Below are positions 22,420-24,106 of a stretch of DNA of 64,000 nt, piece after piece. Location: assembly GCA_017499595.2 (NCBI GenBank), contig CM038998.1:2046001-2110000 (forward strand), written 5' to 3'. Made by a program: the position numbers and the translations under genes. Position 1 is the first letter of the stretch. The number at the start of each line of letters is the position of its first letter. The stretch comes from Psilocybe cubensis (Eukaryota). Under the pieces are notes generated by a model that did no database searches, was not told where the DNA came from, and saw only the letters and a list, made by a program, of their open reading frames with translations.

Positions 22420-24106
22420 ATGCAACGCGTAAAGCAACTTGCTGCACATTTTACAGGCACAGACTCTGCGTCTGGCTTGCCATTACTTGAAAGTAAACGT
22501 CCTGACGATGTCGTCATCACTTTGGCCATTCGTTCTCCTCTATGTAAAGCGAAAAAAGGGGGCTTCAAGGATACCCGGTATTTAATCAATTCAAACGGAA
22601 TCGTATGCATAGACTAAATGACTACCATTTAGTACTGACGAGCTCATGCTTGAAATGTTCAAGGTGACTGCTACACACATGTATTTACAAGGAAACAGAG
22701 CCCTAACGCATTGAATAGCATGTCGTGTCTCGTTCGGGTGTGGAGCCAGGTGCTATTGGCGATGTCTGCGTGGGGACCGTCTTGACCCCGGATGCGGCAT
22801 ATTATGCTCGAGCAGCCATGCTTGCTGCTGGAATACCCGACACAGTACCAGTGCAAATCGTAAACCGATTCTGTTCGAGTGGTCTAATGGCTGTAACGAC
22901 TGTTGCAAATCAAGTTCGTTCCGGTCAGATCAAGATCGGTCTAGCTATAGGCGTTGAAAGCATGTCAGAAAAGTAAGTTGATTTCTTTGTTAGATATGTG
23001 CAAATATTGATAGCATCTCAAAGCCCAGACAAGGGAGGACCTACTTTCAGTGAATTGATATCGTGCAATGCAGCGTCACAAGATTGTCAAGAACGAATGG
23101 GCTGGACAAGTGAAAACGTCGCTGCTGAGTTCAATATCACCAGGGATGAACAAGATACATTCGCAGCGGAGTCTTTCAAGAAAGCCGAGGAGGCCCAAAA
23201 GCGCGGCTATTTTGCGGAGGAGATCGTCCCATTTACAGTCCTCCGAAAAAATGCTGGCTCTGATACTAGGGTCCCCGTGGTCGTTGAAGAGGATGATGGC
23301 ATACGCGCTGGAACTACCAAAGAGAAACTTTCTAAAATCAAAGCTGCATTCCCACAGTGGGGCAACGGGACGACTACTGGTGGAAATGCTAGTCAAATCA
23401 CAGACGGTGCTGCTGCTATCCTTGTCATGACCAGAGCAGAGGCGGAGAAGCGAGGTTTGCCTATTCTTGCGAAGCATATCACCACCGCTGTAGCAGGTGT
23501 ACCACCTCGAATCATGGGTGTTGGACCTGTATACGCTATTCCTCTAGCTCTCGAGAATGCAGGTTTGCAATTATGCGATGTAGACCTTTTCGAAGTAGGC
23601 AATCTCGCCCATGCGTGGTTAATACAAGGCACGATAACCTGATACCGTGTTCTAGATCAACGAGGCCTTTGCGTCGCAATGCGTGTATTGCGTCAAGAAG
23701 CTAAATATTCCCTTGTGCGTATTCATGTCGATGAAAAATTATGTTTAGATATCTCACATGCTCCACACAGAGAGAAAGTTGGGGACATCATATTGCGATG
23801 ATATCAAAATAACTGACACTGAACTAGGTCAACGTGAATGGAGGGGCAATAGCATTTGGCCACCCGTTAGATAAGTGCGCTGGATCCCTGTTGATGAATA
23901 TACTAACCATTTGTGACAATATCTACGTTGCACTGGAGCACGACAGATCGTAACAGGGCTCAACGAGCTACGTCGCCGAGAAGGAAAGGTAAGGACGGAT
24001 ATAACCATACGCCGACACTGGATTGAAAAAATGTTCATAGATCCTGCTGACGTCAATGTGCATTGGCACAGGGATGGGGGCGGCTGGGATATTCCTTCGG
24101 GAATAA
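22420..24106 (+). CDS. POT1: Peroxisomal 3-ketoacyl-CoA thiolase, multi-exon
   Basis: PTS2-like RVKQLAAHF, NRFCSSGL (catalytic Cys), [34 protein letters not shown] (spans an AT-AC intron) and SMCIGTGMG. Confidence 0.92.
23871..23926 (+). other. Non-canonical AT-AC intron (56 nt) in the thiolase gene
   Basis: Begins ATAAGT, has a perfect TACTAAC at 23901-23907 and ends ATCTAC. Removal gives GGC CAC CCG TTA G|GT TGC ACT GGA = GHPLGCTG. Confidence 0.8.

What the first reader, a model, noticed from the sequence alone, without database searches (positions are those of the whole stretch)
23871..23926. AT-AC intron with major-spliceosome (U2-type) signals splitting the catalytic GHPLG motif of the thiolase
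Seen: the conserved motif G-H-P-L-G-C-T-G is restored only by removing a 56-nt segment that starts ATAAGT and ends ATCTAC and contains a perfect TACTAAC. Read unspliced, the frame runs into intron sequence and loses the motif. I found no GT-AG or GC-AG pair that restores it. Established: AT-AC termini are typical of a subset of U12 introns (5' ATATCC, branch TCCTTAAC), and Dikarya are generally held to lack the minor spliceosome. Terminal G-G to A-C double changes are known to be mutually compensating in yeast U2 splicing. Inference: this is a natural U2-type AT-AC intron (GTAAGT to ATAAGT, TAG to TAC). It is either a converted U12 relic or a compensated double mutation, and could limit expression of peroxisomal beta-oxidation. 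Gene predictors would mis-model it.
Basis: partly seen in the sequence, partly recalled or inferred. Interest (0 to 1): 0.8.

Follow-up and report, generated by a model that had tools for sequence, protein, structure and literature searches.

The report
Conserved AT-AC intron in mushroom thiolase
A short intron in the peroxisomal thiolase gene of a mushroom begins with AT and ends with AC instead of GT and AG, is really spliced out, is shared by related mushrooms, and regularly breaks automatic gene predictions, but it belongs to a rare intron class that is already known.

Summary
Window 23871-23926 is a 56-nt intron, ATAAGT...TACTAAC...TAC, in phase 1 of the Gly codon of GHPLGCTG. The gene is a nine-exon peroxisomal 3-ketoacyl-CoA thiolase; its best match is Psilocybe cubensis at 100%.

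- **Splicing:** Intron-free contigs from two runs skip exactly these 56 bases, with no ambiguity at the joint. Their other joints are GT..AG.
- **Not an assembly error:** Raw genomic reads and a DNA contig from another strain show no difference at either terminus.
- **No canonical alternative:** Of 229 terminal-pair combinations tested, only this one restores the motif.
- **Conservation:** All 10 distinct orthologous introns (window plus 9 fungal metagenome loci) are AT..AC, with +1A, +2T, +5G, +6T, -2A and -1C invariant and no U12-type signals.
- **Annotation damage:** 26 of 186 public homologue models read "GHPLD" into the intron, across Agaricales, Hymenochaetales, Russulales and Polyporales. 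The P. cubensis model is truncated.

It is best read as a U2-type (type II) AT-AC intron. This class is known, and AT-AC introns have been verified in other Agaricomycetes (PMC1557818, PMC11590231). I rate it a new member of a known kind, of moderate interest. Its origin and any effect on expression remain untested.

The parts
22420..24106 (+). Coding region of the peroxisomal 3-ketoacyl-CoA thiolase gene. It has nine exons and gives 416 aa. Exons: 22420-22577, 22633-22663, 22719-22972, 23024-23594, 23656-23714, 23771-23777, 23828-23870, 23927-23988, 24041-24106 (stop TAA at 24104-24106).
   Evidence: The spliced translation is open and full length. All joints are present in contigs of X10 and X11. 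Exon 4 is 100% identical to the P. cubensis thiolase P0002. Pfam finds Thiolase_N and Thiolase_C. The closest solved structure to orthologue P0003 is human peroxisomal thiolase 2iik.
23871..23926 (+). AT-AC intron, 56 nt, phase 1, inside the Gly codon of GHPLG|CTG.
   Evidence: Joint 23870>23927 'skips 56 AT..AC', both = 0, in X10 and X11. It is the only combination of 229 that restores the motif. The orthologous intron is AT..AC in 10 of 10 distinct sequences.
23871..23876 (+). 5' splice site ATAAGT, preceded by exon bases AG.
   Evidence: It matches ag|GTAAGT at 7 of 7 positions other than +1, the best of the gene's eight introns. It has 5 of 8 mismatches to the U12 consensus ATATCCTT.
23901..23907 (+). 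Branch-site match TACTAAC. The presumed branch A is at 23906, 20 nt from the 3' end of the intron.
   Evidence: Sequence. Zero mismatches to TACTAAC, against 3 of 8 to the U12 branch consensus. Use as the branch point is inferred, not shown.
23924..23926 (+). 3' splice site TAC (YAC in place of YAG).
   Evidence: Sequence. -3 is Y, -2 is A and -1 is C in 10 of 10 orthologous introns.
23771..23777 (+). 7-nt micro-exon AGAGAAA, two exons upstream of the AT-AC intron. It completes the Leu codon begun in exon 5 and encodes Glu-Lys of LEKVNVNGG.
   Evidence: The letters AGAGAAA lie between the two sides of joint 23714>23828 in X10 and X11 (table 5c). Model. A 7-nt micro-exon is the unique solution in 8 of 9 distinct sequences (window and 7 loci), and it is fused to exon 5 in L011.

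Best explanation
Window 23871-23926 is a genuine spliceosomal intron with AT-AC termini in the peroxisomal 3-ketoacyl-CoA thiolase gene of Psilocybe cubensis, or a very close relative. It is most likely removed by the major (U2-dependent) spliceosome, which makes it a type II AT-AC intron. Apart from A at +1 and C at -1, it has a textbook major-class layout: ag|ATAAGT to pair with U1 and U6, a perfect TACTAAC to pair with U2 placed 20 nt upstream of a YAC 3' end, and the 50-61 nt length of its neighbours. The A(+1)/C(-1) pair is inferred to replace the usual G(+1)/G(-1) contact needed for the second catalytic step. In yeast and human, a G-to-A change at the first intron base is rescued by a G-to-C change at the last. 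Reverting either end alone should impair splicing. That would explain why both ends have stayed fixed across many Agaricomycete lineages. Shown: exact excision, genuine genomic termini and conservation of AT-AC in orthologues. Inferred: which spliceosome acts, which adenosine branches, and why the pair persists.
For: (1) Excision. One contig each from X10 and X11 lacks all eight introns and joins 23870 to 23927, with no shared letters at the joint. This argues against a template-switching artefact. The six other direct joints are GT..AG on the + strand, and the seventh, 23714>23828, carries the micro-exon between two GT..AG introns. (2) The termini are real. Raw reads X13 (418 laid) and DNA contig X8 show no other letter at the four terminal bases. 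(3) Only this pair restores [11 protein letters not shown], 1 of 229 combinations. (4) Major-class signals. The 5' site matches 7 of 7 positions outside +1 and TACTAAC is perfect. Across the 10 introns there are 4-6 of 8 mismatches to the U12 5' consensus and at least 3 of 8 to the U12 branch consensus. (5) Conservation at DNA level. The window plus 9 distinct fungal metagenome introns (L001, L002, L005, L006, L008, L009, L010, L011, L031; L003 and L007 are duplicates) are 10 of 10 AT..AC. Lengths are 53-60 nt and the 5' sites read AT[AG][AT]GT. (6) Conservation at protein level. 26 of 186 public models read GHPLD (D = GAY, so A at +1) and 10 of 186 read RCTGxRQ (R = C+GT, so C at -1). Species come from Agaricales, Hymenochaetales, Russulales, Polyporales and Boletales. 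(7) Literature. No convincing minor introns, and loss of most minor snRNAs, in Ascomycota and Basidiomycota (PMC10639083, passages read). U2-dependent AT-AC II introns and the G1A / last-G-to-C rescue (PMC1557818, section 20 read).
Against: No experiment here shows which spliceosome acts. The whole genome is not held, so the absence of U11, U12, U4atac and U6atac snRNAs in this organism could not be checked. That point rests on the literature for the phylum. The record kind of X10 and X11 is only a guess at RNA, and I infer that they are cDNA-derived from the absence of all introns. Contigs drop rare variants, so splicing efficiency and intron retention are unknown. The 137 'correct' homologue models say nothing about their intron termini. 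The metagenome loci are unnamed, and those with best matches to named proteins look mostly Agaricales-like. Breadth beyond that order therefore rests on indirect read-through signatures.
Confidence: 0.88

Rival explanations
1. Origin variant A. The intron is a relic of an ancestral U12-type AT-AC intron. Its internal signals were converted to major-class signals when Dikarya lost the minor spliceosome, and the termini were kept.
For: The termini are those typical of a U12 subtype. The intron is in phase 1, and minor introns are biased away from phase 0 (PMC10639083, passage read). AT-AC II introns in animals sit in gene families that also hold U12-type introns (PMC1557818, section 20). The intron is old: five Agaricomycete orders show its signature.
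Against: None of the 10 orthologous introns keeps any U12-like 5' or branch signal. More distant eukaryote-like thiolase loci L012-L017 (48-52% identity) have no intron at this codon. No paper in the library holds both 'ACAA1' and 'U12-type'. I could not look at orthologues from lineages that keep the minor spliceosome.
Confidence: 0.12
2. Origin variant B. An ordinary GT-AG intron of an early Agaricomycete acquired G-to-A at +1 and G-to-C at -1. The two changes compensate each other, and the pair then became locked in.
For: Every other feature is that of a normal local intron. The compensation is documented in yeast and human (PMC1557818, section 20). The unusually strong rest of the 5' site (7 of 7, with +5G and +6T invariant in 10 of 10) fits selection to offset a weak +1.
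Against: No orthologue with GT-AG at this position was seen, so the ancestral state is unobserved. The intermediate single mutant should be deleterious.
Confidence: 0.6
3. The intron is removed by a cryptic minor (U12-dependent) spliceosome retained in this fungus.
For: AT-AC termini alone. The genome could not be searched.
Against: 5 of 8 mismatches to ATATCCTT and 3 of 8 to TCCTTAAC. A pan-eukaryotic survey finds no convincing minor introns and loss of minor snRNAs in Basidiomycota (PMC10639083, passages read).
Confidence: 0.03
4. Artefact: an assembly or sequencing error at the termini, a reverse-transcription template switch, or an unexpressed pseudogene.
For: None found.
Against: Independent raw DNA reads agree at all four terminal bases. 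The joint has no repeat (both = 0). Two runs carry the spliced form at depths 935 and 118. The same AT..AC is found in 9 other distinct loci. The spliced reading frame is intact and keeps the catalytic motifs.
Confidence: 0.01

Closest known systems
U2-dependent (type II) AT-AC introns, such as those of human SCN4A and SCN5A and of TAF2 in human and Drosophila (PMC1557818, section 20 read)
   Same: AT-AC termini combined with an otherwise consensus major-class 5' site (ATAAGT), an ordinary branch site, and conservation of the borders in orthologues over long times. The class is extremely rare: 24 of 610,067 introns in five species.
   Different: Dependence on U2 is not tested here. The host is a basidiomycete with no minor spliceosome reported for its phylum. 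The intron is 56 nt and lies in a thiolase catalytic motif.
AT-AC introns catalogued in curated Agaricomycete annotations: Ganoderma lingzhi, 13 introns or 0.014%, one verified by RT-PCR and Sanger (PMC11590231, passages read and one supplement file searched); Coriolopsis trogii, 0.0235% (PMC13395996, passages); Coprinopsis cinerea (PMC12230235, passages); 0.03% of SnowyOwl-predicted introns, a figure not tied to a single species in the passage (PMC4084796, passage)
   Same: Same class of organism, same termini, same rarity and the same consequence: gene models break when the site is not recognised.
   Different: Those papers do not mention thiolase in the text I searched, and they do not report conservation of an individual AT-AC intron across orders. 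Full gene lists may sit in supplements that I could not see.
U12-type AT-AC introns
   Same: Terminal dinucleotides, and a phase other than 0.
   Different: They have a 5' ATATCCTT and a TCCTTAAC branch site close to the 3' end and need U11, U12, U4atac and U6atac. None of those signals is present here.
Yeast actin-intron G1A plus last-G-to-C suppressor mutants (as cited in PMC1557818; primary papers not read)
   Same: The same pair of terminal bases allows the second step of splicing on the major spliceosome.
   Different: Those are laboratory mutants with reduced efficiency. This is a natural, fixed and conserved allele.

Membership tests
U2-type (type II) AT-AC intron | The intron begins with AT and ends with AC and is really excised at those bases. 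| tested here: met
   joint 23870>23927 'AT..AC', both = 0, in X10 and X11. Sequence.
U2-type (type II) AT-AC intron | The 5' splice site matches the major-class consensus except at +1 (the criterion of Sheth et al. 2006, PMC1557818). | tested here: met
   ag|ATAAGT matches 7 of 7 positions outside +1. Orthologues read AT[AG][AT]GT in 10 of 10.
U2-type (type II) AT-AC intron | A major-class branch site is present and U12 signals are absent. | tested here: met
   TACTAAC has 0 mismatches, 20 nt from the 3' end. The best U12 branch match has 3 of 8 mismatches.
U2-type (type II) AT-AC intron | Splicing requires U1, U2, U4 and U6 and not U11, U12, U4atac and U6atac. | not testable with these tools
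   This needs snRNA depletion or in vitro splicing. It is supported only indirectly by the reported absence of minor snRNAs in Basidiomycota (PMC10639083, passages).
U12-type AT-AC intron | 5' splice site [AG]TATCCTT. | tested here: not met
   5 of 8 mismatches in the window, and 4-6 of 8 across the 10 orthologous introns.
U12-type AT-AC intron | Branch site TCCTTAAC about 10-15 nt from the 3' end (consensus and spacing recalled). | tested here: not met
   The best match has 3 of 8 mismatches.
U12-type AT-AC intron | The host genome encodes U11, U12, U4atac and U6atac. | not testable with these tools
   No whole genome is held. The window alone has 0 Rfam matches, which says nothing about the rest of the genome.
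Thiolase (peroxisomal 3-ketoacyl-CoA thiolase) | Thiolase_N and Thiolase_C domains. | tested here: met
   Pfam PF00108 and PF02803 on exon 4, on P0002 and on orthologue P0003.
Thiolase (peroxisomal 3-ketoacyl-CoA thiolase) | C-terminal catalytic motifs GHPLGCTG and CIGTGMG are intact in the spliced product. | tested here: met
   Spliced model. Orthologue P0003 aligns to human peroxisomal thiolase 2iik, which also has [11 protein letters not shown]. The roles of the His and Cys residues are recalled, not tested.
Thiolase (peroxisomal 3-ketoacyl-CoA thiolase) | N-terminal PTS2 peroxisomal targeting signal. | tested here: inconclusive
   The N-terminus MQRVKQLAAHF fits the PTS2 pattern as I recall it (R-[LVI]-x5-[HQ]-[LAF]). 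No tool scored it.

The most novel reading that the evidence does not exclude
This AT-AC intron is a fossil of the lost minor spliceosome of Dikarya. An ancestral U12-type AT-AC intron in the thiolase gene had its internal signals rewritten for the major spliceosome. Its termini stayed frozen because neither end can revert alone. If so, it would be one of the few traceable survivors of minor-intron loss in the largest fungal group.
Probability: 0.12. Interest if true: 0.6.

Novelty: new member of a known kind. Interest (0 to 1): 0.35.

Why it matters
**Annotation.** One non-canonical intron, together with a 7-nt micro-exon two exons upstream, damages a core beta-oxidation gene in public annotations.
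- The P. cubensis entry lacks the whole catalytic C-terminus (353 aa against 416 aa).
- About a third of the first 120 Agaricomycete homologue models are defective here.
- Homology-aware or RNA-aware prediction that allows AT-AC would fix a recurrent error.

**Splicing biology.** This is a clean natural example of the A(+1)/C(-1) pair being tolerated by what is, on the evidence, a major-spliceosome-only organism. Both ends and the rest of the 5' site are held invariant across orders. That makes it a convenient substrate for testing terminal-base compensation in basidiomycetes, and for asking whether such introns descend from U12-type ancestors.

**What it does not change.** The class is already known.

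Tried and rejected
- **Whole genome:** Not held, so the proposed search for U11, U12, U4atac and U6atac could not be run. An Rfam scan of the 64-kb window gave 0 matches and is uninformative for this question.
- **Sequencing runs:** No RNA holder listed. X10 and X11 are only guessed to be RNA. I used them because their contigs lack all introns.
- **Alternative canonical junctions:** All 14 in-frame GT-AG or GC-AG options lose the catalytic motif, so I rejected them.
- **Reading from the minus strand:** The intron would be GT..AT, also non-canonical. The other joints in the same contigs are GT..AG on the + strand, so I rejected this.
- **Reverse-transcription template switch:** Rejected, because no letters are shared at the joint.
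- **Naming the metagenome loci by best protein match:** This gave only rough, mostly Agaricales-like placements. The summed scores were distorted by fused models, so I did not use them.
- **Second homologue search:** It ranked by the C-terminal half, which favours correct models. Its 6 of 66 defective models is therefore a lower bound.
- **Literature, 'AT-AC' + 'thiolase' + 'intron':** 4 papers, none relevant by title. The one I opened matched 'AT-acyltransferase'.
- **Literature, 'ACAA1' + 'U12-type':** 0 papers.
- **Ganoderma paper:** The one supplement file held as text names no thiolase.
- **Not attempted:** I did not look for the intron outside Agaricomycetes. The protein search lists only the best 120, which Agaricomycetes fill, and no eukaryotic genome collection is on hand.

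Full report
**1. What is there**

The + strand from 22420 to 24106 encodes a thiolase in nine exons. Exon 4 (190 aa) is 100% identical to the protein named '3-ketoacyl-CoA thiolase, peroxisomal [Psilocybe cubensis]' (P0002). It is 87% identical to the next hit, an unnamed transcript-derived protein (P0003), and 86% to the Galerina marginata protein (P0004), followed by other Agaricales. Pfam finds Thiolase_N and Thiolase_C. The nearest solved structure to orthologue P0003 is human peroxisomal thiolase 2iik (E = 3e-117), which carries the same [11 protein letters not shown]. The N-terminus MQRVKQLAAHF fits the PTS2 pattern as I recall it.

**2.

- 23871-23876 is ATAAGT, 23901-23907 is TACTAAC and 23924-23926 is TAC.
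- Read unspliced, the frame gives GHPLDKCAGSLLMNILTICDNIYVALEHDRS and then a stop.
- I tested 229 donor/acceptor combinations (GT-AG, GC-AG, AT-AC, GT-AC, AT-AG). 69 were in frame and stop-free.
- Only 23871-23926 gives [11 protein letters not shown]. All 14 GT-AG or GC-AG options delete or replace the motif.

**3. It is spliced, and it is not an error**

No listed run is on record as RNA. Two runs guessed to be RNA held only 0.56 and 0.52 of the sampled words, as expected if introns are missing. Laid on 22300-24300, each gave one contig that lacks every intron.

- Six joints are GT..AG.
- Joint 23714>23828 carries the seven letters AGAGAAA between its sides. This is a micro-exon flanked by two GT..AG introns.
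- Joint 23870>23927 is 'skips 56, AT..AC', with no letters shared between the sides.
- Contig depths were 935 (X10) and 118 (X11).

In the same call, 418 raw genomic reads of X13 and a 12-kb DNA contig of X8 contain the intron and list no other letter at the four terminal bases. They differ from the window at 22389, 22841, 22952, 23135 and 23219, so they are another strain. This rules out assembly error, pseudogene status and template switching. Contigs cannot give efficiency, so intron retention is not measured.

**4. Which spliceosome**

The 5' site with its exon context, ag|ATAAGT, matches ag|GTAAGT at 7 of 7 positions other than +1. That is the best match among the gene's eight introns, whose scores range from 3 to 7 of 7. 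TACTAAC is a perfect match to the yeast-type U2 branch sequence, 20 nt from the 3' end. The length (56 nt) is that of its neighbours (50-61 nt).

Against the U12 consensus there are 5 of 8 mismatches at the 5' site and 3 of 8 at the best branch candidate. The consensus strings are recalled. A survey of over 3000 eukaryotic genomes reports no convincing minor introns in Ascomycota or Basidiomycota, loss of most or all minor snRNAs, and 'complete absence from Dikarya' (PMC10639083, passages read). I could not check the snRNAs in this genome because no assembly is held. The assignment to the major spliceosome is therefore an inference, though a strong one.

**5.

*DNA level.* A scan of metagenome contigs with exon 4 gave 12 fungal-like loci at 60-78% identity (L001-L011 and L031). 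The remaining 68 kept loci, at 43-53% identity, were more distant.
- Eleven of the twelve reach the relevant region; L004 ends before it.
- They hold 9 distinct introns at exactly this codon position (L003 = L002, L007 = L006).
- With the window, that is 10 of 10 AT..AC, at 53-60 nt.
- +1A, +2T, +5G, +6T, -2A and -1C are invariant. +3 is A or G, +4 is A in 9 of 10, and -3 is a pyrimidine.
- Nine of the 10 have a YTRAY branch-like motif 15-20 nt from the 3' end; in L001 the nearest lies at 12 nt, with a second at 17 nt.
- The more distant loci L012-L017 (48-52% identity) read straight through GHPLGCTG with no intron.

*Protein level.* The same intron can be seen in faulty public gene models.
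- Among the 120 best homologues of exon 4, 77 have the correct motif. 21 read GHPL-D-(K/E/M/T), that is G|AT..., running into the intron. 22 are truncated upstream or skip the motif.
- Among 66 further proteins from a second search, 60 are correct, 5 read GHPLD and 1 skips the motif. That search ranks by the C-terminal half and so favours correct models.
- 10 of 186 models read R before CTGxRQ. With the exon bases GT, R means that the last intron base is C.
- The species involved are named. They include many Agaricales, among them Coprinopsis cinerea, Pleurotus djamor, Tricholoma matsutake and Termitomyces.
- Other orders are represented by Sanghuangporus (Hymenochaetales), Artomyces and Gloeopeniophorella (Russulales), Abortiporus (Polyporales) and Gyrodon (Boletales). 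Orders were confirmed for four of these; the order of Gloeopeniophorella is recalled.
- 'Correct' models say nothing about termini, so I have no case of GT-AG at this position.

**6. How it most likely works**

In the major spliceosome the first and last intron bases interact during exon ligation. A G-to-A change at +1 is rescued by a G-to-C change at the last base in yeast and in human pre-mRNA, 'although less efficiently' (PMC1557818, section 20 read; primary papers not read).

A natural A/C pair should therefore splice. Either single reversion should not. This predicts what is seen: both ends are invariant in 10 of 10, and the rest of the 5' site is unusually close to consensus. That last feature resembles what is described for GC-AG introns in the same paper.

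The claim that the intron limits beta-oxidation has no support or contradiction here.

**7. Origin**

Two routes remain open: a converted U12-type intron, or a compensated double mutation of a GT-AG intron.

I lean to the second (0.6 against 0.12). No orthologue retains any U12-like signal, and the more distant eukaryote-like loci lack the intron. No paper in the library links ACAA1 to U12-type introns, although that is weak evidence.

In L011 the upstream micro-exon is fused to exon 5 but the AT-AC intron is present. The AT-AC intron is therefore independent of the micro-exon-creating intron.

**8. Comparison with what is known**

U2-dependent AT-AC (type II) introns are an established but very rare class.
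- There are 24 among 610,067 introns of five model species, with none in C. elegans or Arabidopsis.
- Their borders are conserved in orthologues, and fungal xylanase genes were already suspected to hold them (PMC1557818, section 20 and table read).

In Agaricomycetes, curated annotations have counted AT-AC introns.
- Ganoderma lingzhi has 13 (0.014%), one confirmed by RT-PCR and Sanger, with an explicit note that missing it broke a gene model (PMC11590231, passages read).
- Coriolopsis trogii has 0.0235% (PMC13395996, passages).
- SnowyOwl reports 0.03% of its predicted introns (PMC4084796, passage).
- Coprinopsis cinerea lists them among its accepted subtypes (PMC12230235, passage).
- Fungal annotations overall show AT-AC at low frequency (PMC7072748, passages).

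None of the text I searched mentions thiolase or conservation of one such intron across orders. Gene lists in supplements that I could not see might.

**9. Verdict**

- The feature is real and was correctly described.
- It is a new, well-documented and unusually well-conserved member of a known rare class.
- Its practical consequence is widespread mis-annotation of a core metabolic gene.
- Interest is 0.35. It would rise to about 0.6 if the intron proved to be a relic of the lost minor spliceosome.

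Noticed in passing
window 23771-23777: A 7-nt micro-exon, AGAGAAA, lies between two GT-AG introns (23715-23770 and 23778-27). Intron-free contigs confirm it. A 7-nt micro-exon is the unique solution in 8 of 9 distinct sequences: the window and 7 metagenome loci. 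In L005, L008 and L010 its downstream donor is inferred to be GC. In L011 it is fused to exon 5. Several public models are wrong here too, for example ...LPRYVNVNGG.
   Followed up: partly
window 22420-24106 versus protein P0002: The public P. cubensis protein model is 353 aa and ends by reading into intron 4 (...DLFEVGNLAHAWLIQGTIT). It lacks the whole catalytic C-terminus. The RNA-supported model is 416 aa.
   Followed up: yes
window 24512 onward (next gene, + strand) and the 25357-26550 ORF: Two homologue models, P0039 (Marasmius crinis-equi) and P0048 (Favolaschia claudopus), fuse the thiolase to the downstream gene. That gene begins MASYN... and carries Pfam PF07940. It matches the gene after the thiolase in the window, and loci L005, L008 and L011 score highly with those fused models. 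The gene order appears conserved.
   Followed up: no
window 22483, 23981, 24194, 22307: Raw reads of X13 are heterozygous at several sites. TAC is inserted behind 22483 in 9 of 32 reads (in frame, exon 1). A>G at 23981 appears in 15 of 29 reads (Glu to Gly in RRREGK by my reading). T>C at 24194 appears in 12 of 35 reads. This fits a dikaryon or a mixed sample.
   Followed up: no
window 22389, 22841, 22952, 23135, 23219: Five fixed differences separate the window from runs X8, X10 and X13. X11 shares four of them and has no depth at 22389. These are strain differences, and none touches a splice site.
   Followed up: no
window 1-64000: No Rfam family reaches its gathering score anywhere in the window on either strand.
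   Followed up: yes
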